A stretch of DNA of 20,000 nucleotides, from positions 76,411 to 96,410 of the forward strand of contig NW_014040481.1 in NCBI RefSeq assembly GCF_001186125.1. The letters are read 5' to 3'. Shown here piece by piece: positions 1-16,089 of this stretch (positions within the stretch are counted from its first letter, which is position 1; each line of letters opens with the position of its first letter). The notes beneath the pieces were generated by a model. The model saw nothing but the letters and a program-made list of their open reading frames with translations. It was not told the origin of the DNA and made no database searches. Source of the DNA: Sphaeroforma arctica JP610 (taxonomy: Eukaryota). Position numbers and translations under genes: made by a program.

Positions 1-913
1 CAGAAGGTGAAAGCAGAAGCCGAGACTCAAGCTAAGGCTGAGGGTAAAAAATCGGGAAATCTATCCTGTCACTCGTTAGATATGTCGGATATGAGTGCTG
101 TGTGTAAGTTCGTAGCCGACTTCCCAAAGGATAAGGCGATACACTGTTTAGTCAATAATGCGGGAGCCTTACCCTATGAGAGAGAAATGGTGAGTGGTGG
201 TAGACTAGAGAAGACGACGGCTTGTCACGTGGTAGGGCCGTACTTGTTGATCAAAGGTAAGGCTATAGCTAGTCGTAAACGGACTAGGGGAAATTATATC
301 CGTTTGCTTCTATATGACTGGTGTTGTAGTCCTTCCGTGTGGTGCGAATGCATATACATACATCCTTCATTTTATTTGCTTATTTTATTTGTATTTATGC
401 ATACACATAAATCCATTATTTTTTATGTTTATGTATATACATGTATACTTTGTTTGTTATTTGTATGTGAATGAGACCGATTGAACACGTCATCGTCCTT
501 TTCTCAGTCGTAACAACACTTCCCAGTCGGTGTTTTCTATTACTGCTGCTCATATCTTTAAGAGGAAGGCGTTTGTTTTCTTGAAAGGAACCGTCAATGA
601 TTCTCAGAGTGTGAGGTGTAGCTTATGTTTTGCAACGCAGTCGATCGCGCGCACACTGTCCTGCTACGCTACAAACAATTGGTGAAAATAGCAGTGAGGT
701 TTGTGTTTGGATTTGTTTTTGAATTGAATATATATCGATCACGATCTGGACTCGTATACTTCAACACCGGGGTTTAAATACACTACACTATTAATGTACA
801 TCGACGATTGCACGAGCAATTGAAGATAGGTACTCAATTGAAGATAGGTCCTCAAATGATGCACATTATTTACATCTACAATAAACGTGCAATTAACGAT
901 ATATACTCCATAT

Positions 914-948
<35 letters not shown>

Positions 949-1192
949 TTGTGTGTGTAAGTATATCTATCTTCCGGATTACACGAGCAATTAAAGCTAC
1001 ATACTCAAATGCTACAATATATATATATATATATATTCATATATATTCATATATACATATAAACATATATATATATATATATATGTCTGTGTCTGTGTCT
1101 GTGTCTGTGTCTGTGTACACACACACACATATATATATATNNNNNNNNNNNNNNNNNNNNTACTAAATAGCTACTACGTTATATACTATTAT

Positions 1193-1233
<41 letters not shown>

Positions 1234-2230
1234 ATGTACAAATATATATATATATATATATAGATATATATATATATACATGAGCTAGTTAGCTATGTAC
1301 TCAAATGCGACATGTTATCCACCCGCAGGCTTACACGCACAACTGAAGTTAGGCAACGGGCGGGTCATCAACAACGCGTCTGCTGGGCTATATGGCGCAC
1401 AGATGGATGTGGCTGCACTCAAAGATGGGTTCAAGACATATGTCAAGAAAGACAACAAAGTCGACGGCGCGTTAGTGTATGCTGTATGTAAACGAGCGAT
1501 GTTGGAGATGAGCGACTTCTTGGCAGACTGCTACAGCGAGGATGGTACTGTTATCATGACTAACCATCCCGGGTGGTGCGAGACGGAAGGTTTGAAGCCT
1601 CTACTGGATCAGCATGCGGGATACGGCAGCATCACATTCAGGTGAGAGAGCGAGAGATATTACATAACCTAAGAAATAGATACTTGCAAATCTTTGGTGT
1701 GCGTGTGGTAGCATCACATTCAGGTAAGAGATAGATACTTCCTACACATTGTTGTACGTGTTTTTTGTTGAGGTGTTTTCGCGTTTCTTCTCAACTGAGC
1801 CCTGCGCAACGGGTTAACGGAGGTTCCCAATATGTGCCCTAGCCTCCGATGTCTGATCCGATGTATTAAAACGCTTTCTCTTTTACGTATATGGCATGGC
1901 CTCATCACATGTATAGATACCCTGATTCTGCTATATGCATACCGTTAACTAGGCCCCAATGTTATCAAGCAGCAGCTAATCTCCCGTATGTCTGGTTGCA
2001 TTTCGTTTGTCCGTCTCAGAGATCCGAGGGATGGTATGATGGGAATGTACTACCTGTGTGTGGCGCCAGAGGTGGATACTAGCTACTCAGGCAAGTTCTA
2101 CTTCGACGGCAAGGCAGTGGAGAAACACCAGATGTTCACAAGCACCTCGAGTTCGGATAGGAGTGTCAATGAAATGATTGCCTTCTGTGAGAAATTTAAT
2201 AAGTTACCGGCAGGATCCGATGGGAATTAG
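1..2230 (+). CDS. DHRS12: Short-chain dehydrogenase/reductase, DHRS12-like; 5'-partial; exons <1-256, 1329-1641, 2020-2230
   Basis: Splice sites AAG|gtaagg (257), cgcag|GC (1328), AG|gtgaga (1642) and tctcag|A (2019) join in frame (phase 1, then phase 2). The spliced protein has the SDR motifs LDMSD, LVNNAG, RVINNAS, catalytic YxxxK (DGALVYAVCKR), HPGWCET and SGKFYFD, and ends at TAG 2228-2230. DGxxVYAxxKR and HPGW recall DHRS12; orthology is not tested. Confidence 0.85.
915..1280. repeat. Intronic microsatellite cluster: (TA)n, (TG)n, (TGTGTC)n, (CA)n, with a 20-N gap at 1141-1160
   Basis: Simple repeats are directly visible inside intron 257-1328. Confidence 0.95.
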
Positions 2231-2579
2231 CGATGTGCGTACGTCGTTTATTATAAATAAATTTATGTACGTGTCTCACTGGGTCCGATATAGCGACATA
2301 CGTATTTCATTTATTATGAATTAAATTATGTAAATGTCTCTCTGGGTGCAGTTAGAATCCGCTACGATTGGTGTTGTTTTATTTTAATTATAGGTATGTA
2401 GTTCAAGTTATGATTAAGAGAGAGTAATATACTTGTGTGTACCTATGCAAAGTGCTACATATTTGGCTGTGCTTACAGACACGTTAGTGACGCTTGTGGG
2501 AATAGTCAGAGGCTCTGTTAGAATTTTGCAGCTTATGCGGCAATTGAGTGCGCATGTGTAAGTTAGCACCAACAGCTGT

Positions 2580-4865
2580 AGATACTTTCTTTTGCTATTG
2601 ATATTGACTGCGTATACTTTATGATACTATTCATTTCTGACTGCGTATACTATATTTTGCTGTTGATAATGATTGCATATACTCTATGTTGCTATTGATA
2701 ATGATTGTATATACTTTATGTTGCTATTGATATTGACTGTGTATACTTTCTTCTGCTATTGATATTGACTGCCGATACTGTATGTTGCTATTGATATTGA
2801 CTGCGTATACTTTATTTTGCTCTTCATTCTTGACTGCAAATACTATATTTTGCTATTGATAATGATTGCATATACTTTATGTTGCTATTGATAATGACTG
2901 TATAAACTTTATGTTGTTATTGATATTGACTGTGTATACTTTATTTTGCTATTGACACTGAATGCGTATACTTTATGTTGTTATTGAATTTGACTGCGTA
3001 TACTATATTTTGCTATTGATATTGACTGCGTATACTTTATTTTGCTCTTCATCATTGACTGCAAATACTATATTTTGCTATTGATAATGATAACATATAC
3101 ATCATGATGCTATTGATAATGACTGTATATGCTATTGATAATGACTGTATATGCTATTGATAATGACTGTATATGCTATTGATAATGACTGTATATGCTA
3201 TTGATAATGACTGTATATGCTATTGATAATGACTGTATATGCTATTGATAATGACTGTATATGCTATTGATAATGACTGTATATGCTATTGATAATGACT
3301 GTATATGCTATTGATAATGACTGTATATGCTATTGATAATGACTGTATATACTTTATGTTGCTATTGATATTGACTGTGTATACTATATTTTGCAATTGA
3401 TATTCACTGTGTATACATTCTTCTGCTATTAATATTGACTGCCTATACTTTATGTTGCTCTTCATTTTTGACTGCGTGTACTATATTTCGCTATTGATAA
3501 TGACTGCATATACTTTATTTTGAAATTGATAATGACTGCGTATACTTCATGTTGTTATTGATATTGACTGCGTATACTATATTTTGCTATTGATATTGAC
3601 TGCATATACTTTATTTGATATTGATATTGACTGTGTATACTTTATTTTGCAATTGATAATGACCGCGTATAATTTATGTTGTTATTGATATTGTCTGCGT
3701 ATACTATATTTTGCTATTGATATTGACTGCGTATACTTTAATTTGCTCGTCATTATTGACTGCGTATACTATATTTTGCTATTGATAATGATTGCATATA
3801 CTTTATGTTGCTATTGATAGTAACTGTATATATTTTATGTTGGTATCGATATTGACTGTGTATACTTTCTTTGCTATTGATATTGACTGCGTATACTTTA
3901 TGTTGCTCTTCATTTTAGACTGTGTATACTATATTTTGCGATTGATAATGACTGCATATACTTTATTTTGCTATGGATAATGACTGTATATACAATGTTT
4001 TGCTATTGATAATAACTGTATATATTTTATGTTGGTATTGATATTGACTGTGTATACTTTCTTTTGCTATTGATATTGACTGCGTGTACTTTATGTTGCT
4101 CTTCATTTTAGACTGTGTATACTATATTTTGCGATTGATATTGACTGCATATACTTTATTTTGCTATTGATAATGACTGCATATACTATATTTTGCTATT
4201 GATAATAACTGTATATATTTTATGTTAGTATTGATATTGACTGTGTATACTTTCTTTTGCTATTGATATTGACTGCGTATACTTTATGTTGCTCTTCATT
4301 TTAGATTGCGTATACTATATTTTGCTATTGATAATGACTGCATATACTATATTTTGCTATTGATAATGACTGCATATACTTTATTTTGCTATTGATTATA
4401 ACTGCATATTTTTTATTTTGCTATTAATATTGACTGCGTATACTTTTATGTTGCTCTCCATTATTGACTGCGTATACTATATTTGCTATTGATAGTGATC
4501 GCATATGCGTTATGTTGCTATTTATATTGACTGCATGTACTTTATGTTGCTATTGATAGTGACTGCATATAGTTGCTATTGATAATGACTGCATATACTT
4601 CATTTCGCTATTGGTATTAACCGCGTATACTTGATGTTGTTATTGATATTGTCAGCGTATACTTTATTTTGCTATTGATAATGACTGCGTATAGTCTATT
4701 TTGCTATTAATATTGACTGCGTATAATTTATGTTGCTATTGATATTGACTGCGTATAATTTATGTTGCTATTGATATTGACTGTATATACTTTATTTTGC
4801 TATTGATATTGACTGCGTATACTTTATGTTGCTATTAACATTAACTTCGTATTTTTTACTTTGCT
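2580..4865. repeat. Minisatellite of ~70 diverged copies of a ~32-bp unit (GCTATTGATA[T/A]TGACTGCGTATACTTTATGTT)
   Basis: The monomers are directly visible, head to tail, with no unique spacers. The array includes 11 perfect copies of a 22-bp derivative at 3109-3350. Confidence 0.95.
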
Positions 4866-4903
4866 AATAATCATACTATATTTCTTGTTCTATCCCATCC
4901 CCG

Positions 4904-6856
4904 TCACACACACTTCGCTGATCGGAGTATCTTGTTCTCTGCCCTGAGACAGTCTATATCAAACCCCTGCGTGACAATCGCATTCATCATACTCTGTACA
5001 CACACGTCATCGTCGTTGGCCCCCTTATGCTCCCTCGCCAACTGTCGCAGCAGCGCACTCTGCTGCTGACACACCTCTTGCAACGCGTCTATCCGTGCAT
5101 TGGCCACATCCGCTTGCATCTGCATCTGCGCCTGGAGCGCCAGCACTGAGGCCGAAACATCCCTCATCTCCTGTCGCTGCTCTTTAATGACATCCAACAT
5201 CTCCCGCATCAGTGTATCCGTCTGTGATGGTACAGCCACATTTGCTGTTCGCGTGCCGTATGTGGCCCCGTCGTCCTGAGCTGAAGTGTTGCCCTCAGGC
5301 AAACCACTCAAGCCTACTACGTGTGGCGTTGATACTACAACCTCCTCTGTAATCGCTATCGGCAGTGACATGCGTTTAGAGGGGAAGCTCTGATTGGCCG
5401 GGGCTGAGGCTCCGGCGTGTGCCATCTCATCAAAGTCCACCGACGTGCTCGTCTCTGTGTTTGTAACCATTTGCGTGGGTGCTTGCGCGTTTCCCCGAGA
5501 AGTCCGCTTGGTGTTCGCAGGCATTTTTCGCACCGCCCCACTAACACACGTGGGTGTCGAGGGGTGCCTTGGACCGTCTGCCTTGGTATGCCCTGCACGG
5601 CCAGTCGGCAGGTCTTTATTGACTACCAATGGAGGTGGCATGTGTTGATGCAATCGTCCGCGGTGTGGGTGCTGAGGCTGCTTGATACCCTCCGATATAG
5701 TGTTTGCTTCTGTATCTGGGACCAGCTTGGATCGCTGTAGTTTGATGGGTATGGTATCTCGAGACTCGGGCGAGATGGAGCTACACGTGTCTGCGTGAGC
5801 TCGGACCACCCCAGATGCGCATCCGCCCGAGATGCTCGCACTCCTGCCGTACGTTACCTGGTTAGTGTTAGTCGGAGGCCTTGGGAGGCAACTGCCCTTT
5901 AGGCTTTCGTGAACTGAATCCACACTGTTCAGTCTACGCTGAGGTGCGGACTGGTTGGACCGCAAACCAGACCTATCATACAGATCGTCTGCGCTCACTT
6001 TTGTATCCAGGGCTGTGACTGTGAACCTTCCAGCACTACGGCCATCGCGTACCATCCAGGGTGACTGAGGTGCACTTCGAACAATCGGGTCACTTCCCGT
6101 GCGTGTGCACGTGTCCTTGTTTACATTTGTTTCTGAATATCCGATGGTAGCAGTATTGTCGTCCCCCCATCGTGAGCTAAAGGTGTGTTCTGGCGCAAAG
6201 TGCCGGAAACCTTCCTCCACCGGTGTTGAACTGTTCCTACGCATAGGTATACCTGAAGCTGGTACATACAGATTTCGAGCTGAGTGGAATCTACTTGTTT
6301 CAGAATCAAAAGAGCTCTCTGCCACATTGGGTGCGTAAGTCGGTACGCTTAGCGGTCTACCGTCGCTATTTAACGGCACGATCTTGAACCTATTTGGTTT
6401 TGTTTGATCGACTTCTGTCCTTGTACGAATAGTTCGAGGTGTGTGAGGTGTGATGCATGCACTAGCGGTCCCCTCCAAGCTTGTATCAAGTTGTCCGTTA
6501 ACATGTCTTGAACGAGGTGACAGAACATGTGTCAATTTGTCATCGCGTGAAATTTGGCGAGATGCCTGCTCAATGGTGCGCGATGTCTGGCGCACTATCG
6601 CAACGTCTGAGGGTGTCATGTTGCCGTTCACAGATAGGATTACGCCTGTGCATGCAGGTACGGTACCTACAGTCTATTTAAAAAACAAATGAATGAATAT
6701 AAATATATAGACACTATGTCATGTATTTACAACTGCTGTATTAGGTATGTAAGTACAGTATATTTATCTATTTTTTATATTATGCGTAGAATAGCTTCTC
6801 ACTGTGTCCTCTGCCCAGACAGCCCAGTGCACGCTCGTCCCTAGACTCTTTTCTGC
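4904..6856 (-). CDS. Spliced gene, 5'-incomplete: small exon 6856-6803 plus large exon 6673-~4904; disordered Ser/Thr/Pro-rich protein with RFxI/RFxV motifs and a C-terminal coiled coil
   Basis: A 1.77-kb stop-free, GC-richer frame starts right after the acceptor tttgttttttaaatag (AG at 6675-6674). An upstream 54-nt phase-0 exon (AEKSLGTSVHWAVWAEDT) is flanked by ccgcag and gtgaga. The coiled-coil-like end is LMREMLDVIKEQRQEM...LRAENKILRS. The 3' end may be TGA 4906-4904 or a GTGTGT donor near 4913. Confidence 0.75.
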
Positions 6857-7870: not shown

Positions 7871-9000
7871 TTATAAAACCGAACGCGAGTGTGTAGGACG
7901 TGCAGTGTTTTTGGTTAAAATATCGGACTGGTTGTCCCCGGAAGAAATGAATTCGACGCGAATGACCCGATTTCCTAGAGCTCCTTGGTGTGTTGTACGC
8001 GAGCATCGATGTATTTAAGGTGCTTCGTATGGCCAGTGGATGTAACGTCATGTATTGTTGATTTGTTATCACATTGTAATACGGTGGGGGTCTGCTGAGG
8101 GAAGCCGAGTTCCTCGAGGGTATTTCGAAGCCATTGAATATGTTTGGCGGCCTCAGACGCAGCGAAATATTCTGATTCCGTAGAGCTAGTAGAGATGGTT
8201 TCTGCCGGTGAGATTTCTACGCTACGGATATGTGGTTGATACGTAGGACAATATAGCCTGTTATGGAGCGTCTGGTGTCCGAGCAGGGAGCGTAGTCGGC
8301 GTCGGAGCCAGCATCGGCAATTCGGGGGCCCTTGTGATATTAGATGTGGTGTACCTTTGAGATACCGCAGGATGCGTTGTGCAGCTGACCAGTTTTGTTT
8401 TCGAGTCAAGACTGAAAGCTACTGAAGGGTGCCGATGAGTTCACGATATGCACATAGATGGCGTGGTTCCTTATTTTTAGCGACTTGTTCTTGTGTTGCA
8501 GGTGTGGGTGCAGAATGGCTTTCGGCTAGATCAAACATCTCTAGAGCCTCCTTGATGGCACTATCTTGGCCGAGACAAATAGAGTCTGGTGTAGTAAGGA
8601 CATGCACCCCTATAAGCCATCGTGGCTCTCCCAGATCCTTGCAGCTGAATTTGATCTGGATCACAAGGGATTTGAAGTGATCGACGTCTGATTTGCGTTG
8701 TCAGCATATGATAAGATCGTCTACGTATAGCAGTACGACACATTTCAGATCATCAATATCAGCGATAAACATGCACTGGTCACCATCAGACTATCGGAAG
8801 CCCATCGCGAGTAGTTTGAACTTTATCAACGCATACCACAATCGACCTGATTGTTTGAATCCATACAAGAACTTTTTGAGTTTCATGACACAGTTGGCAG
8901 GTAGTCTCGTAGCGTTTGCACCCGGTGGTGGCCTCATATAGATTGGTTCATCGAGATCGGCAAAAGGATGTGCGGTATCAACGTCTATTTGGTGTTTGTA
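7871..9000 (-). pseudogene. pol: Copia pol: reverse transcriptase (N-terminally truncated) and RNase H
   Basis: From 9000: YKHQIDVDTAHPFADLDEPIYMRPPPG...MKLKKFLYGFKQSGRLWY...GFR*SDGDQCMF...LLYVDDLII (YVDD at 8727-8716). Then KDLGEPRWLIG, YRELIGTLQ, AQRILRYLKGT, STSSTESEYFAASEA, CDNKS, and VEFISSGDNQSDILTK, ending at TAA 7873-7871. Confidence 0.93.
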
Positions 9001-9869: not shown

Positions 9870-10796
9870 TAGCATAGTCCATTTTGGAAGGACTTGGTAA
9901 TTGAATTTAACATCACGAGAGTGACATATTTTACCCGTCTTCAGGTTGAGGATCTGGCATTCGTCTTTGTATTTGGACTGGTGGTCATGGCCTAAGTACA
10001 CACCGATATTGGCGCGGTCGTCCAGTTTGCCATCACGTGACTGATTGATGAACGCAACTTCCACAAGGATGTATGTGTTTGATTCGTTCAGTGGGTTTGA
10101 ATCCCCAAAAAAACCTCCCATGATTTTTATCCTTGTTGTGTTTGTTGTTGTGAACAGATTTCTTCAAAGCGGCAAACTGAATGGCTTCGCCCCACATGTT
10201 GTACGGCATTATAGATTGTTTCATGTCGCTGAGCATGATATCATGAATTTCTCCGTGGAGTGCAGAGGTGGCTGTGGGAACGCATAGTGTAGAAATACGG
10301 CCTCCGGTCAGTCTGAAATATCAAGATCAATTGGAGATAATACATTGGTTTTTATTTGTATTTTAAATAATTTAATACAAGCTCTTTTTCCAATATATTT
10401 CCAAAGTGTTCTAAATTCACTTTGATGGCTCCAATAGCCTGAGTATTTGGTATGACTCATCTACTTGGACCTGTTTGCNNNNNNNNNNNNNNNNNNNNGC
10501 ATCTGGACATGTTCTTGGGTATTGATTTTGTTGAATTTTTGGGAAACAAATTCACCACCTCGATCACATTTAAGTTCGCGTAGTTTAGCGAGGTAGTCTT
10601 TGCCAACCTCTGTATATAATTGGTCAAGTACACCGGTGGCGTCATCTTTGTGTTTAAAGTTATAGTCCAACATGTAGCCGCTGTTGGCATCCACAAATTT
10701 GATATCACAGATGTAGCCGCTAGGGGTGGTGGTTAGTCCGGTGTGGAGACCTACATAGAAGACCGTACCTACAAGTGGGAGTGTGTCATCGTCCAT
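9870..10796 (-). pseudogene. pol: Copia integrase catalytic core and C-terminal SH3-like region, interrupted by an insertion and an assembly gap
   Basis: Motifs FVDANSGY...FKHKDDA...LKCDRGGEFVSQKF, MPYNMWGEAIQFAA, and KLDDRANIGVYLG...KTGKICHSRDVKFN match the Copia integrase consensus. Confidence 0.9.
10285..10498. mobile_element. Nested AT-rich non-coding insertion within the integrase; right end hidden in the gap
   Basis: Integrase homology stops at 10284 and resumes at 10499. The insert starts TAGTG. The left flank ends GGAACGCA and the first bases after the gap are GCA, compatible with a target-site duplication partly hidden by Ns. Confidence 0.5.
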
Positions 10797-10939
10797 GCTG
10801 GTGTGCCGGACTGGTCGTCATCGCATTTTTCCTTCTACACAAGGAGTGCAAAATTGAAGTTTGATAGGGTGGGCAACAGTATCCGCTTCGGCAGTAAGTA
10901 GTACAGCCGTGGGCGGTACAGCATGCTTCACGTGTCCAA

Positions 10940-11369
10940 TGCTTGATACTATCCCTATGCATATGTAACGCCATTTGGGTAGTCCTACGACATCGTGACC
11001 GTTCTCGAGGAATGTATTCTCAGTTGTGCGTATGATCTTCACATGGGAGTGTAGTTGGCGAAGGGTTTGGTTATAATTGCTAGTATTAGGTATGAGTGGG
11101 AAGACCATGATGATGAGTCCATCCTCAGTGTCGCACTTGATTAGTGTATCACGCCACGATTTGCGCCGAAAGGATATGTTGCCATATAGATGTTTTGTCG
11201 GTTGATGCCAGTATTGTTGGGAGGCGTCGTTGAGGGGTGCATTGTTGTTGAGGCTGCAATACATTGGCACTTGCGCGTTTTCTGCAGTTGCGAACATGTC
11301 GATGTCGACATTGTCGAAGACTTCAGTGACATGGCGTTTGAAGATGTCCGGATGAAGCATCCACTCATC
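10940..11369 (-). other. Dam-like (phage/DIRS-type) DNA N6-adenine methyltransferase domain fused in frame within the Copia polyprotein
   Basis: The segment reads DEWMLHPDIF...DIDMFATAENAQVPMYCS...DASQQYW...LYGNISF...LIK...IIMVFPLIP...PKW. Motif order and spacing match the Dam PF05869/DIRS MT pattern (W-x-L/T...F, D-x-D-L-F-A-S-x2-N, D-A-F-x3-W, Y-x-N-P-P-F, L-V-x-P-x-W-P). The catalytic NPPF equivalent is NISF. Confidence 0.8.
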
Positions 11370-11489
11370 ATGAGAATGCTTGGGTTTGGCAGTTGGGGTA
11401 ACATTGTTGTAAAATGTCGTTGCCGTACTCTTACCACTATGTCCTAGTCTGTCATGCCACTGCTCAGCTGTATTAGTGCTGAGTTGTGC

Positions 11490-11746
11490 TAATGTATGCT
11501 GGCCGTGTGTATGAGGTATAATGTGGAGTATAGTGTTATCTTTATGTGACGTAAGAGTTGCACTGAGAGTATATTTTGTGCTGCTGTGGGCATGATAAGA
11601 ACAGTTCCAAGTCCTGGGAGTGTGCCCCGTTGAGTCAGGATGATTTGACTTTTATCGGTGAATTCTACGATAAAGCGACCTGTTTCTATATCAATAACGC
11701 CTTCAGTAGTTGTTCTTATGTGTACCATAGCTCCAGAGTCTATCAG
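11490..11746 (-). pseudogene. pol: Copia aspartic protease
   Basis: SLIDSGAMVHI (DSGA at 11740-11729) and VLIMPTAAQNILSVQLL match the Copia protease consensus. It is in frame with gag across a single TGA at 11920-11918. Confidence 0.88.
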
Positions 11747-11917
11747 ACTGGAGGCTGTGAGATACTTATCTTTTGTGGGCCCGGTAGGGGTATGATTAAG
11801 AATATGTAATCTGTAGTAGCATTCAGGGCCTCCATGTGTAAGTGTAGGGTATGGCGTATCTATAGTAGTATTAGTATCATGACTATCGTGAACACCAGTA
11901 GAGCGGGCCCCGTACCT

Positions 11918-13582
11918 TCAGTTTTGCAAGCATGCCGCGGTGTTGTGTCCTGTCTTGCCACACTTGGGGTTGGTGCATTTGAGAGTGTTGCGGTCAATTG
12001 AACACTTGTTGCCTTTGTGGTCAGACGCACCACATTTGCGGCAGATAGAGATGGGGCAGCTATGAATGCTGTACCCGACTTCCTTGCAGATGAGAGATAT
12101 GTTCTCGCGGAGCTTCGTGGTCTCCTTCGAATTAGTCTGTGCGGTTTTCTTGCTAGTGAATGCGTTGATACCAGATGAATTGGTGGTAGTTTGGAGCTGG
12201 TGATCCCCTTCATACTTGAGCGTGAGCCGGTAGACCTCATTGATGTCGAGTTTATCAGTGTCCATAGCAAAGATTGGAGAACGAAGTAATTGATATTCAT
12301 CACTTAGGCTGTATAGCAATGCGCAGATCAAGTACTTGTCAGGGATACGCTCACCAACGTCGGGGAGACCTCGGCGAATTTCTTCCAACTGTTGCGCACT
12401 CTTTTCGGTAGATCCAGTTGCCGTAAATGATGTGAGGCGCTTCATTGCGTTCCAGAAACGCCCGTGACTGCCGGTGTTGTTAGTAATAAATATGTAAGTA
12501 AAGATATCAAAAGGTCGTTTGGCATAGTGATTCTTGTCTACCGCGTTGATAAGTTCCTCTTTGATCGAATCGATCATGATGCGTCGGCAGCGTGCATCAG
12601 CAAGTGCGTCGACGCCACAGGTTTCTTCGCAGTTGGGGTGTAGTCTATGAAGCACTCCGAAGTGGGCAAGCTCCGTTTTGATACCAACAAGCCAATTACC
12701 GAAGTTTACCCAGTTTTCAAGCTTGGTGCGGTTGTAGTTGTTCTTGTATTTAGGACACTCAGAGAGTGGAACATCCGGGTCAGTAGCAGAGATACCACAT
12801 TTCTCGGTATATGTAGATGGTTCATCGTCTGTGGTAGTTGATGCTTTGAGCACGTCTATAGTGTCTAGCGCTTCTTGTAGTTCAATGCGAGTAGGGTCTA
12901 ATTCATGCTGGAGAGCGGAGAGGTTACCTGTAGACTTCTCGCTTTGCTCGTAGAGTCGTGACTGTGTTGTTGTGAGACGTTATGATATTTGTTTGTGTTC
13001 GATCTGTAGTGTTTCGTGTTTTTCTAGGAGAACTTTGTGTCCGTTCCTCAGCTGTACGTTGTGACGTTTATAGTTTTCTAGGTCAGCTTGCACGTCTTTC
13101 TTCTGTTTCTTGGCGTGGTATTGTTCACTACGAGCCATTGTGAAATGTGCAAACACAACCGCTGTAGAGCCATAAATCTTTGCTCGTAGAGACGTGACTG
13201 TGCTGTTGTGAGAAGTTTTGAGATTTGTTTGAGTTCGATCTGTAGTGTTTCGTGTTTTGTCTAGGAGAACTTTGTGTCCGTTCCTCAGCTGTACGTTGTG
13301 ACGTTTATAGTTTTCTAGGTTAGCTTGCAAGTCTTTCTTCTGTTTCTTGGCGTGGTATAGTTCACTACGTGCCATTGTGAAATGTGCAAGTACAACCGCT
13401 GTAGAGCCATAAATCGGATCGACATAAATCTGTAGTTCACGGATGACGTTGTTAATGGCTTCTAAATGGCTGTTTGAGGACTCGAGTGTCGTATATTCGA
13501 GTATGCGAGGCAAAAAATTCCGAGCGAAGGTATTATCTGCCTCCAGAGAAGTGAAAGCCTTTGGCCAAGTTATTGTCTCCAT
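11918..13582 (-). pseudogene. gag: Copia gag with an N-terminal coiled-coil extension and three zinc knuckles
   Basis: The ATG at 13582 lies downstream of the PBS. Track ORFs 12980-13582 and 11918-12853 are one frame broken only by TAA 12982-12980. Motifs include KLENWVNFGNW, LLYSLSDEY, CRKCGASDHKGNKC and CTNPKCGKTGHNTAAC. Confidence 0.88.
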
Positions 13583-13751: not shown

Positions 13752-13762
13752 GGCCCATAACC
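13752..13762 (-). promoter_or_regulatory. Primer-binding site GGTTATGGGCC (complementary to the internal/anticodon region of tRNA-iMet, as in Drosophila copia)
   Basis: The minus strand reads ...GTCTAACA|GGTTATGGGCCTG, directly abutting the LTR's terminal CA. Confidence 0.85.
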
Positions 13763-13958: not shown

Positions 13959-14682
13959 TCTCTGTTTACTGAACTGTAACTGTATCAGAGAAGACTAATT
14001 ACAGTGCTGATTTGTCCAAACACTCCCCTAAAAACAGTAGTACATCATGTATATTTGAGGATATAATCTACAGTGAGCTTATTGTGTAGCAGTATGTTCC
14101 TCCCCTAATTTTTTTTTCGGATTGATTCGGGTGGGTGATTGGCGGCAGCAGTGAGCATAGAGCTTGTGTTGCGGGAATATCGGTCGAGGTATGTTTTTGG
14201 TTTGGCTTCCAGACAACATATAGAACCATCTCATATACTAAGTCGAGTGTGTATTCATTTACACCTCTATTGAGGGTTTTATATGTATGTACATCCACGA
14301 GTTATATGTATTCATAGGTAGTTGTAAATACATGTCACTTATTGTAATGAACTTATTAGACACCTCATGACACCTGTCATTTGATGTTAACCCGCTGTGT
14401 ACCAAAATAGTTGTATCTGAGAACACTAATTACAGTGCTGATTTTGTCCAAACACATTCTGATTCTCCCACTTGAAAACAAAACAAAAATATTTTGGCAG
14501 TGTACGGTGTGCGGTATGCAGTGTATGTACAGTCAGCAGTGTGCACTCAGCCACTCACTGTACTGTGCACTCACTGAGCCACTGCACTGTGAAAATATTT
14601 TATAGAGTGTGCGGGAGTGTGCACCATGCACTTCAGTCATTTCTGATTAGTCTTTAACACTGAAATTTCCAACACTGTCATC

Positions 14683-14824
14683 TGTATTCCAGATACAACA
14701 ACAGTTTAGTACCAAGTAGAGTACACAAGAGAGAACTGACACCTATCAAATTTGTATTCCAGATACAACAACAGTTCAGTACCAAGTAGCGTACACAAGA
14801 GAGAACTGACACCTATCAAATTGT
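14683..14824. repeat. 70-bp tandem duplication, two copies with two mismatches
   Basis: TGTATTCCAGATACAACAACAGTT...CCTATCAAATT starts at 14683 and at 14753. Confidence 0.9.
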
Positions 14825-15872
14825 CACAAGAATTTTGAAGACATACTTAACACTAATACAAGTGAGCAGTAATTGTATATGTACAAGCGAAGGATACATA
14901 TAACCCTTGCTAAAAAGATAAATAAAGTTATTAGATACATGATTCTAGATATGCTACACTAATCCCTTCGATTTTTGATAGCATGACGTACTCCACTCCA
15001 ATCATCCAGGAATTAGTATCATCTTCTTCCAAACTTGGTAGTACCTTTGTACACAGCTTATTGCTCCTTAGTAGCCTCACTTAGATTCATTTTGTCGTTG
15101 TCATTACACGCGGCTACATGCGCCCATTAGCAGCAGTGAGCCTCACAGCTGCCGCTCAAATGTGGGCAAACCCCCAAAAACGAGCCCTCCAGAATCGCCA
15201 GGATGGGCCGCCCAATGCCGGACAAAACTCTCCTCGAAATGGATGACATAACTCCTGTATGACTCTTCTTCCGGGCAATTTTTCCCAACGGCAAGCCCTC
15301 ATCCCGATCAGTTTCTGATAAACACTGTCACGCCCAACCGCTCCTCATTCGCCACCACTTTCTCTGGTATCTCCCGTCCAAACCGGTTTTCAGAACCAAA
15401 TCACCGCGGGAGCTCCACCAGTTTCGTCCGCCTTTTTGTTCCTAATAACGCTGTCCCCCAAGTGAAACGACATGCAGCACTTACGTGGAAATGGCCATTA
15501 GATGAAATCATAGACCCCCCGCCTCCCAAAACACCCCAACGCTACGAAAGCAACATTAATCCACTATCTTCGCACTAAGCGGGAGGTTCGCTGCACACAT
15601 GAACGAGCGCCAAAAATTCTTGCCCAAAGCATGGATGCTCTACTGGATCTCCTTATCAACTCCACTAACGTAGAAATCCTTCAATTTACCACGGACCGTC
15701 TCCAGAAAGCATACCAAGAAAAACGCTGCAAACTTCTTCTCACATAACCCGCGAATCTCGACAGGCACTAAAGAACCAGCATGTGCTCAGCACGGACGAC
15801 CCCGCGTACCAACGGTCTTCCCGACACAGCTTCAACCTTCCATCTCAGACTGAGGGAACTGAGCGTCTGAGC

Positions 15873-16089
15873 CAGGGGCGCCCAGGCTTCATAACGTTAG
15901 TACGTTACCCATACACAGTGTAGACGTACTACGTTTTGTCATTTACGCCTTGAATATAAAAGTAAATATGTATTAAACAATACGTCTATGAGCAACACAG
16001 TGTGCATATAGACGTAAGCTCATAGTGTAAACGTACTACGTTTTCACGTTTACGAAAAGATTTTAAAACGTTTTACGTTATGAGACCTG
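15873..16089. mobile_element. Non-autonomous hAT-like MITE, 217 bp
   Basis: There is a perfect 8-bp TSD GTCTGAGC at 15865-15872 and 16090-16097, and the ends are CAGG...CCTG. The TIR is CAGGCTTCATAACGT (15883) versus reverse-complement CAGGTCTCATAACGT at the right end. AGTGTA[G/A]ACGTACTACGTTTT is repeated internally. Confidence 0.8.

What the first reader, a model, noticed from the sequence alone, without database searches (positions are those of the whole stretch)
10818..11459. Copia retrotransposon with a Dam-like DNA adenine methyltransferase inserted inside the integrase HHCC zinc-binding motif
Seen in sequence: one uninterrupted minus-strand frame reads WHDRLGH (11459-11439), SGKSTATTFYNNVTPTAKPKHSH, DEWMLHPDIF...DIDMFATAENAQVPMYCS...DASQQYW...YGNISF...IIMVFPLIP...LPKWRY, then FCTPCVEGKM (first C at 10850). 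After a single TGA it continues in frame into the integrase core. The second H and first C are 196 aa apart. Established knowledge: in Copia the WHxRLGH...CxxC halves are about 25-30 aa apart, and Dam-like MT domains with these motifs are typical of phages and of DIRS tyrosine-recombinase retrotransposons, where they follow RT-RNaseH. They are not part of the canonical Copia polyprotein. Inference: a Copia lineage captured an N6A-MTase fold as a loop insertion in the integrase N-terminus. It would then travel with the pre-integration complex and could mark the cDNA or target site with 6mA, or act as a DNA-binding/targeting module. The clean in-frame fusion without TSD or stops argues for a family-level feature rather than a random nested insertion. 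I do not know of this architecture being described, but cannot exclude it.
Basis: partly seen in the sequence, partly recalled or inferred. Interest (0 to 1): 0.92.

Follow-up and report, generated by a model that had tools for sequence, protein, structure and literature searches.

The report
Copia integrase with embedded adenine methyltransferase
A broken Copia-type jumping gene, likely from a Sphaeroforma-like marine protist, has an adenine-methyltransferase-like domain planted inside its integrase's zinc-binding motif, a layout shared by related copies, which would let intact elements carry a possible DNA-marking enzyme to each new insertion site.

Summary
One open frame carries WHDRLGH, a 143-residue Dam-like domain and CTPC, 196 residues after the second His, in a decayed Ty1/Copia element (RVT_2 E 3.5e-28; order PR-IN-RT-RH). 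The insert models as an N6-adenine methyltransferase fold (PCIF1 Z 10.5, T4 Dam Z 8.0). It is a family trait. Seven Sphaeroforma arctica proteins in three subfamilies carry pieces of the layout, and one (SARC_09551, about 30% identical) carries all of it. The methylase has diverged in step with protease and integrase.

A May 2026 preprint describes Dam-bearing LTR elements, including in S. arctica, but all are Ty3/Gypsy-like and its text never mentions Copia. I found no Copia-Dam in print (supplements unseen). This scan earlier noted Gypsy-Dam and Copia-cytosine-methylase elements on other DNA, not this one.

Activity is open. All 5 copies that reach motif IV keep the Asn, none has the canonical NPP, and no intact element was seen. 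Likely mechanism (inferred): the methylase stays fused to mature integrase and seeds 6mA on new copies. Verdict: new variant of a known kind, interest 0.6.

The parts
13752..13762 (-). PBS-like motif directly after ...AACA (probable 3' end of a 5' LTR). Its match to a half-tRNA-iMet primer site is recalled, not tested.
   Evidence: PMC6317226 passages confirm only that half-tRNA-Met PBS types exist in plant LTR elements
11918..13582 (-). Copia gag with a 237-bp internal duplication, one stop at 12980-12982, CCHC knuckles at 12043-12002 and 11977-11930, and a TGA at 11918-11920
   Evidence: PF14223 E 1.6e-6, 28.1 bits over cut-off 27
11549..11755 (-). Aspartic protease (LIDSGA at 11746-11729); frameshifted against the integrase frame
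   Evidence: Pol_BBD E 0.049; 42% and 37% identical to SARC_01068 and SARC_09551
11439..11459 (-). HH half of the integrase zinc motif (WHDRLGH)
   Evidence: PF13976 E 5.5e-4, below cut-off
10941..11372 (-). Dam-like N6-adenine methyltransferase-fold domain; motif-I-like DMFA within 11306-11289, motif IV NISF within 11186-11169
10851..10940 (-). Linker with a predicted helix between the MT domain and CxxC; conserved in relatives (50-53%)
10827..10850 (-). CC half of the zinc motif (CTPCVEGK)
   Evidence: CNPC in SARC_05500, CRVC in SARC_09551
10818..10820 (-). TGA stop; a related contig has no stop at this codon, so it is likely decay in this copy
   Evidence: table 3
10500..10817 (-). Integrase core, first part (first catalytic Asp reads Gly; second Asp in CDRGGEF at 10568-10548)
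   Evidence: rve E 0.0012; 55-67% identical to three S. arctica proteins
10310..10498 (.). 20-N scaffold gap (10479-10498) and an AT-rich (GC 0.30) non-Copia piece interrupting the integrase core
   Evidence: the core resumes collinearly at about 10284 (CVPT..LHG), compared by eye with P0003
9810..10300 (-). Integrase core, second part, and SH3-like C-terminal domain (frameshifted)
   Evidence: PF25597 E 7.2e-9
8419..8994 (-). Copia-type reverse transcriptase (YVDDL at 8727-8713) with stops
   Evidence: RVT_2 E 3.5e-28, read with X at stops
7880..8310 (-). Ty1/Copia-type RNase H remnants (DADYA, ESEYFA, CDNKS, DILTK) in three frames; no 3' LTR follows
   Evidence: the motif assignment is recalled, Pfam gave no RNase H hit

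Best explanation
This is a dead copy of a Ty1/Copia retrotransposon family whose integrase carries a Dam-like adenine-methyltransferase-fold domain between the HH and CC halves of its zinc motif, and in intact elements the domain likely stayed fused to mature integrase and would methylate adenines on the new cDNA or at the insertion site. Steps: (1) shown: Copia backbone, MT fold, position, and sharing by three subfamilies. (2) inferred: one ancestral in-frame capture from the DIRS/Gypsy retrotransposon MT pool, landing where the first Cys normally sits, 25-29 residues after H2. (3) inferred: cleaving the MT out would part HH from CC, so the MT must stay with integrase in the pre-integration complex. 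(4) inferred, following the preprint's model for Gypsy DAM-LTRs: 6mA laid on the new copy is maintained by host AMT1 and keeps the copy transcribed. My odds: architecture real and family-level 0.93; MT retained on mature integrase 0.7; DNA-adenine methylation as the selected function about 0.45.
For: Copia: PF14223 above cut-off, PF13976, RVT_2 E 3.5e-28, IN before RT. Fold: MT core modelled with pLDDT mostly 73-89; Foldseek top hit PCIF1 E 9.3e-4, then DIMT1, KsgA, M.TaqI; VIA PCIF1 Z 10.5 (rmsd 3.3, 147 aligned), T4 Dam Z 8.0, E. coli Dam 7.6; Atlas first hit carries PF05869 on 14% of members. Family: 7 of the 29 hits of the 1.84-billion-protein search are S. arctica proteins that join MT pieces to Copia PR, HH, CxxC or integrase core. 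SARC_09551 has H2 to C1 = 194 residues against 196 here. MT identity tracks its neighbours: 52-63% against IN core 55-67% in the near subfamily, 40-44% against PR 42%, and 30-32% against PR 37%. The insert starts 25, 25, 26, 26 and 29 residues after H2 in the 5 of 8 proteins that have this part, each with C or H three residues before the MT start. Motif-IV Asn is kept in 5 of 5 that reach it; NIPF in SARC_02258; NIPY lines the active site of Erm (PMC9386465 passage). Host context: S. arctica has 6mA, and its DAM-LTRs are more often methylated and expressed (preprint).
Against: No copy has the NPP triplet that the preprint calls near-universal (0 of 5). The preprint's E. coli expression of retroelement DAMs gave no 6mA. 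Iyer et al. place DIRS MTs in the PCIF1 clade and call them likely inactive (PMC4738411 passage). The closest solved folds are RNA methylases. No intact element was seen; every protein is a fragment or frameshifted. The 21 listed differences from the nearest related contig fall in 20 codons, 4 synonymous and 16 not, like neutral decay (integrase side only, 21 of 24 differences). The HH and CC ends were unconfident in the window model (pLDDT under 50) and the SARC_09551 model was poor (mean 39). The H2-to-MT spacer in this subfamily is Thr/Pro-rich and variable, which may mean a relaxed zinc site.
Confidence: 0.5

Rival explanations
1. Same architecture, but the domain is a non-catalytic nucleic-acid or chromatin-binding module that tethers the intasome, for example to 6mA-marked or RNA polymerase II-associated chromatin, like a chromodomain or Ty5 targeting domain.
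For: Motif IV departs from NPP in 5 of 5 copies; Iyer et al. propose inactive DIRS MTs that bind transcripts or mimic PCIF1; negative E. coli assay; a position on integrase suits targeting (inference).
Against: The Asn of motif IV and the D-[LM]-F-[AS] motif are kept across 30%-identical subfamilies; N-I-P-aromatic works in Erm.
Confidence: 0.25
2. The domain is active on RNA (cap-adjacent or internal adenines of the element's own transcript, or the RNA strand of the RT intermediate) rather than on DNA.
For: Best structural matches are PCIF1/CAPAM, KsgA/DIMT1 and Erm; PCIF1_WW appears among Atlas and Pfam hits of relatives; the preprint raises a hybrid substrate.
Against: T4 Dam scores Z 8.0, 2.5 below the top hit and tied with several RNA methylases, and fold similarity does not fix the substrate. 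A place inside integrase fits a DNA step better (inference).
Confidence: 0.13
3. A tolerated passenger: a DIRS/Gypsy fragment landed in frame once and was copied along without benefit, possibly with the zinc site lost and the elements mobilised in trans.
For: All copies seen are decayed; one related contig has lost late gag, PR, HH and MT by internal deletion (loose end at 10909, matched by eye to 12220-12196); no DNA-level selection test on the MT was possible.
Against: The MT kept frame, length (194 against 196) and motifs while subfamilies diverged to about 30% identity, and is about as conserved as PR and IN. HH and CxxC are both kept in the two proteins that span them.
Confidence: 0.1
4. 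Chance similarity or assembly artefact.
For: Pfam Dam score below cut-off; a scaffold gap lies 320 bp downstream.
Confidence: 0.02

Closest known systems
DAM-LTR retrotransposons, ichthyosporean lineage (Fernandez-Moreno et al., bioRxiv 10.64898/2026.05.21.726589; whole main text read, figures and supplements not seen)
   Same: DDE-integrase LTR element with a PF05869-type MT of the retrotransposon group; same host group (Pirum, Abeoforma, S. arctica). An Abeoforma Gypsy RT-RH-Dam protein (P0018) is among my hits.
   Different: They are Ty3/Gypsy-like with RVT_1; in the Gypsy hits I saw, the MT sits between RNase H and an intact HHCC (P0020). Here the element is Copia (RVT_2) and the MT splits the HHCC. 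'Copia' occurs 0 times in their main text. All Copia copies score below the Pfam cut-off, best E 1.2e-5, against their 1e-5 threshold.
DIRS retrotransposon MT domain (Muszewska et al. 2013, PMC3783388, passages; Iyer et al. 2016, PMC4738411, passages)
   Same: Homologous MT domain, 22-40% identity in local alignments of the window domain and relatives.
   Different: DIRS place the MT after RT-RH and use a tyrosine recombinase, with no protease or DDE integrase. This element has both, and the MT lies inside integrase.
Retrotransposon-borne cytosine DNMTs (de Mendoza et al. 2018, PMC5890265, passages; PMC12344493, passages, one sentence naming DNMT3 in Copia and DIRS)
   Same: Recurrent capture of a DNA-methylase domain into pol.
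   Different: C5-cytosine enzymes, a different family; none is described inside the HHCC motif in the passages seen.
PCIF1/CAPAM, KsgA/DIMT1/Erm and T4 Dam (solved structures)
   Same: Class I Rossmann amino-methyltransferase fold (Z 8-10.5).
   Different: About 10-13% identity; host or phage enzymes. The insert is a minimal core of about 145 residues.

Membership tests
Ty1/Copia LTR retrotransposon | pol order PR-IN-RT-RH | tested here: met
   IN and RT are linked across a 20-N gap, but the core is collinear on both sides
Ty1/Copia LTR retrotransposon | RVT_2-type reverse transcriptase | tested here: met
   PF07727 E 3.5e-28
Ty1/Copia LTR retrotransposon | Copia-type gag and gag-pre-integrase domain | tested here: met
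   PF14223 above cut-off; PF13976 E 5.5e-4, below cut-off because only the HH half aligns
Ty1/Copia LTR retrotransposon | paired LTRs, PBS, PPT, TSD | tested here: inconclusive
   No LTR pair in the window. A PBS-like motif follows CA at 13762. The 3' end looks truncated after RNase H.
Integrase HHCC zinc-binding domain | two His and two Cys ligands present | tested here: met
   window and SARC_09551
Integrase HHCC zinc-binding domain | canonical H2-C1 spacing of about 25-30 residues (recalled; PF13976 is 67 positions long) | tested here: not met
   196 and 194 residues
Integrase HHCC zinc-binding domain | halves fold together around Zn | tested here: inconclusive
Eukaryotic retrotransposon DAM (PF05869-type) N6-MTase | homology over the whole domain | tested here: met
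Eukaryotic retrotransposon DAM (PF05869-type) N6-MTase | Rossmann amino-MTase fold | tested here: met
   the Atlas model of SARC_09551 also matches Dam-bearing clusters
Eukaryotic retrotransposon DAM (PF05869-type) N6-MTase | NPP-aromatic catalytic motif IV | tested here: not met
   NISF, NIPF, NI(frameshift), NQP and NPIW in 5 of 5 copies; Asn kept
Eukaryotic retrotransposon DAM (PF05869-type) N6-MTase | adenine methylation activity | not testable with these tools
   needs a bench assay
DAM-LTR as described in bioRxiv 10.64898/2026.05.21.726589 | non-DIRS LTR element encoding a DAM domain | tested here: met
DAM-LTR as described in bioRxiv 10.64898/2026.05.21.726589 | Ty3/Gypsy-like organisation with RVT_1 (the described lineages) | tested here: not met
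   RVT_2 and IN-before-RT order
DAM-LTR as described in bioRxiv 10.64898/2026.05.21.726589 | MT belongs to the ichthyosporean DAM-LTR clade | tested here: inconclusive
   16-row tree; Copia+Gypsy p-AU 0.31, Copia+DIRS-like p-AU 0.20
DAM-LTR as described in bioRxiv 10.64898/2026.05.21.726589 | raised 6mA and expression of copies | not testable with these tools
   no methylome access; no RNA holder listed
DIRS retrotransposon | tyrosine recombinase, with no protease or DDE integrase | tested here: not met
   PR and DDE-type core present; no YR family among the 13 and 4 translations scanned

The most novel reading that the evidence does not exclude
A further independent capture of the retrotransposon Dam domain, the first into the Ty1/Copia superfamily, in which the methylase is built into the integrase zinc finger itself. 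The intasome then becomes an integrase-methylase that writes 6mA on each new copy as it inserts and hands it to the host AMT1 active-chromatin pathway. Such elements fall below standard Pfam thresholds and may be hidden in other 6mA-bearing protists.
Probability: 0.35. Interest if true: 0.8.

Novelty: new variant of a known kind. Interest (0 to 1): 0.6.

Why it matters
It extends Dam capture from DIRS and Gypsy to the other main LTR superfamily, in the same host lineage, which strengthens the case that retrotransposons are repeatedly selected to exploit host 6mA. The position is informative. In the Gypsy DAM-LTRs seen here the MT lies between RNase H and integrase and could go with either after cleavage. 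Inside the HHCC motif it can hardly be cut away, so it points to action at the integration step and gives a single polypeptide to assay. It also shows that the integrase N-terminal domain can tolerate a 170-residue insertion. Practically, S. arctica has a published 6mA methylome, so the prediction can be tested now. Weak-scoring Copia-MT families may have been placed in either the DAM or the non-DAM LTR set in that study.

Tried and rejected
No genome is held for this window, so copy number, intact copies and DNA-level selection on the MT could not be tested.

Searches for longer relatives found none: P0001, 0 of 510 candidates; alignment A2, 0 of 7849. This is weak evidence. Metagenome scans found no relative: 0 of 40 stretches and 0 of 66. 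The range beyond Sphaeroforma is therefore unknown, not shown to be absent.

PDB sequence searches gave no methyltransferase, and the PHROGs hits were weak. The Atlas feature search on SARC_09551 gave no usable hit.

The second AlphaFold job (SARC_09551, 8 rows) was unusable, mean pLDDT 39. Complex prediction of the HH half with the CC half plus Zn was not available, so there is no verdict.

No RNA holder was listed among 24 runs. A second read-laying over the whole element was not obtained, so LTR ends stay undefined.

An 8-bp direct repeat at the two MT edges was rejected as a target-site duplication. About 0.1-0.3 such matches are expected by chance (hand estimate), and the family is too old for one to survive.

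The MT tree does not name a donor. Rows left out of it: frameshifted or half domains P0003, P0005, P0006 and P0026, redundant DIRS-type rows, and the spurious repeat hit P0021.

Literature searches for a Copia-Dam element: (open-access PMC and bioRxiv only); none described one. Repbase, subscription papers and the preprint's figures and supplements were not seen and could hold it.

Full report
Observation. The minus strand from about 13.76 kb to 7.9 kb holds one decayed retroelement. The frame 11651-10821 is open and contains, in order, WHDRLGH (11459), a domain starting HDEWML (11372), DIDMFA, YGNISF, LPKWRY, and CTPCVEGK (10850). H2 to C1 is 196 residues. A single TGA at 10820 separates it from the in-frame integrase core.

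The element is Copia. Gag matches PF14223 above its cut-off, the HH region PF13976 (E 5.5e-4), the core rve (weak) and the tail PF25597 (E 7e-9). The RT read with X at its stops matches RVT_2 at E 3.5e-28, and RVT_2 is described as predominantly Ty1/Copia (PMC3783388 passage). The order is PR-IN-RT-RH. A 20-N gap and an AT-rich piece interrupt the integrase core. The core resumes collinearly, and the Copia-specific gag and pre-integrase signals lie on the same side of the gap as the insert. The copy is dead: it has stops in gag, IN and RT, a frameshift between PR and HH, and Gly for the first catalytic Asp. A PBS-like motif follows CA at 13762, but no LTR pair is present.

The insert has an adenine-methyltransferase fold. 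Pfam Dam is weak (E 0.001). But 21 of the 22 non-Sphaeroforma hits of the large phmmer search align over the same MT region (the other is a repeat artefact). They are DIRS-type or Gypsy-type pol proteins or fragments, and several score well on Dam. A profile of 12 of them covers the insert end to end at 89 bits, against 4.9 for the best of 500 shuffles (partly circular). AlphaFold with 13 rows gave a confident core and unconfident ends. Foldseek ranked PCIF1, DIMT1 and KsgA first, and VIA gave PCIF1 Z 10.5, Erm/KsgA 8-8.7 and T4 Dam 8.0.

It is a family trait, not a one-off. Seven of 29 hits are annotated S. arctica JP610 proteins, which makes a Sphaeroforma-like ichthyosporean the likely host. 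SARC_07328 joins HH, the MT first half and the integrase core. SARC_02258 is the MT. SARC_05500 joins the MT second half, CNPC and the core, and SARC_08604 joins the MT second half and the core. SARC_01068 joins PR, HHARFGH and the MT first half; SARC_02379 is its close relative. SARC_09551 carries PR, HH, the whole MT and CRVC with a 194-residue gap. They fall into three levels of identity, and at each the MT is about as conserved as PR or IN. The insert starts 25-29 residues after H2 in 5 of 5 proteins with that part, with C or H three residues before it, which is where the first Cys normally lies. In SARC_01068 the PF13976 profile runs weakly to position 65 of 67 over exactly this stretch. 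This points to one insertion at the canonical CxxC site. Contigs from 3 of 4 runs laid, from three studies, span 10681-12100 without a difference, so the junctions are not mis-assembled. The same call shows a related contig with no stop at 10820 whose other end jumps into gag (an internal deletion that removes PR, HH and MT together). A further loose end reads like the MT-to-CxxC linker of another copy. Both were read by eye.

Results against the functional reading. None of the 5 copies that reach motif IV has NPP; they read NISF, NIPF, NI, NQP and NPIW. The Asn is kept, and NIPY is a working active-site motif in Erm (PMC9386465 passage), so activity is neither shown nor excluded. Retroelement DAMs expressed in E. 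coli gave no 6mA, and an earlier review judged DIRS MTs inactive PCIF1 relatives. No intact element was seen, and the nearest contig differs like neutral decay (4 synonymous, 16 non-synonymous codons). Closure of the zinc site could not be modelled. The tree of 16 MT domains has the four Copia rows on one side with weak support (36/49; three of them 91/89) and rejects neither a Gypsy nor a DIRS-like donor.

Mechanism. I commit to this reading. A Copia ancestor took the MT in frame from the DIRS/Gypsy pool present in the same hosts. Because it lies between zinc ligands it stays on mature integrase, reaches the cDNA ends and target DNA, and likely seeds 6mA that host AMT1 maintains, keeping new copies transcribed. 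The architecture is shown. Retention on integrase is inferred from the layout. The 6mA step is borrowed from the preprint's model and its correlative data on S. arctica DAM-LTRs. The rivals are a non-catalytic targeting module, an RNA-directed enzyme, or a passenger.

Comparison with what is known. Fernandez-Moreno et al. (bioRxiv 10.64898/2026.05.21.726589; whole main text read; figures and supplements not seen) report Dam domains in non-DIRS LTR elements for the first time, including an ichthyosporean lineage with S. arctica, described as Ty3/Gypsy-like. Their classification uses RVT_1, their Dam threshold is E 1e-5, and 'copia', 'HHCC' and 'zinc' occur 0 times. The Copia copies here score E 1.2e-5 at best in hmmscan, so they would mostly be missed or left as orphans. 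E-values differ with database size, however, and the supplement may include some of them. De Mendoza 2018 (passages) knew Dam only from DIRS. Eight paper searches found no Copia-Dam. Other papers were seen as passages (PMC4738411, PMC3783388, PMC11673190, PMC12344493, PMC12695648, PMC9386465, PMC6317226); the rest only as search listings. Earlier notes of this scan cover Gypsy-Dam and Copia with cytosine-methylase-like domains, none with this sequence.

Verdict. The feature is real and family-level. It works like a DAM-LTR but is not a member of the described Gypsy lineages. The Copia host and the position inside the HHCC motif appear undescribed. New variant of a known kind; interest 0.6, limited by the prior preprint, by unproven activity and by the decayed state of every copy seen.

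Noticed in passing
P0020 (unnamed 5.1-kb contig), P0011, P0018 (Abeoforma whisleri): Gypsy pol proteins with Dam between RNase H and integrase; P0020 is a complete 1208-residue RT-RH-Dam-IN-chromodomain protein with NIPF at motif IV. These fit the published DAM-LTR kind.
   Followed up: partly
SARC_01068 and SARC_02379 against SARC_05500: The residues just before the MT in one subfamily (LTYCN) resemble those at the downstream CxxC in another (LTFCN), hinting that the insertion duplicated the start of the CxxC motif. Different subfamilies, five residues; speculative.
   Followed up: no
window 12942-13415: 237-bp tandem duplication in gag, 94.5% identical.
   Followed up: no
window 10310-10498: AT-rich insertion with a scaffold gap inside the integrase core; possibly the end of another repeat.
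   Followed up: partly
window 2530-4930: Large AT-rich tandem array with 32-bp units and an inner run of 22-bp units.
   Followed up: no
window 4904-6673 (-): 589-codon open frame, Ser/Pro/Thr-rich with a coiled-coil-like end, no Pfam match; probably a host exon.
   Followed up: partly
window 1-2230 (+): Exon-like pieces of a short-chain dehydrogenase host gene (adh_short E 0.006).
   Followed up: partly
window 14680-14819; 13981-14023 and 14412-14455: A 70-bp tandem duplication and a 44-bp repeat pair upstream of the PBS-like site, in or near the putative 5' LTR.
   Followed up: no
window 15250-15920: GC-rich stretch (about 0.49) with strong skew opposite to the Copia element and two ORFs of 84-108 codons on the plus strand; possibly a fragment of another element.
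   Followed up: no
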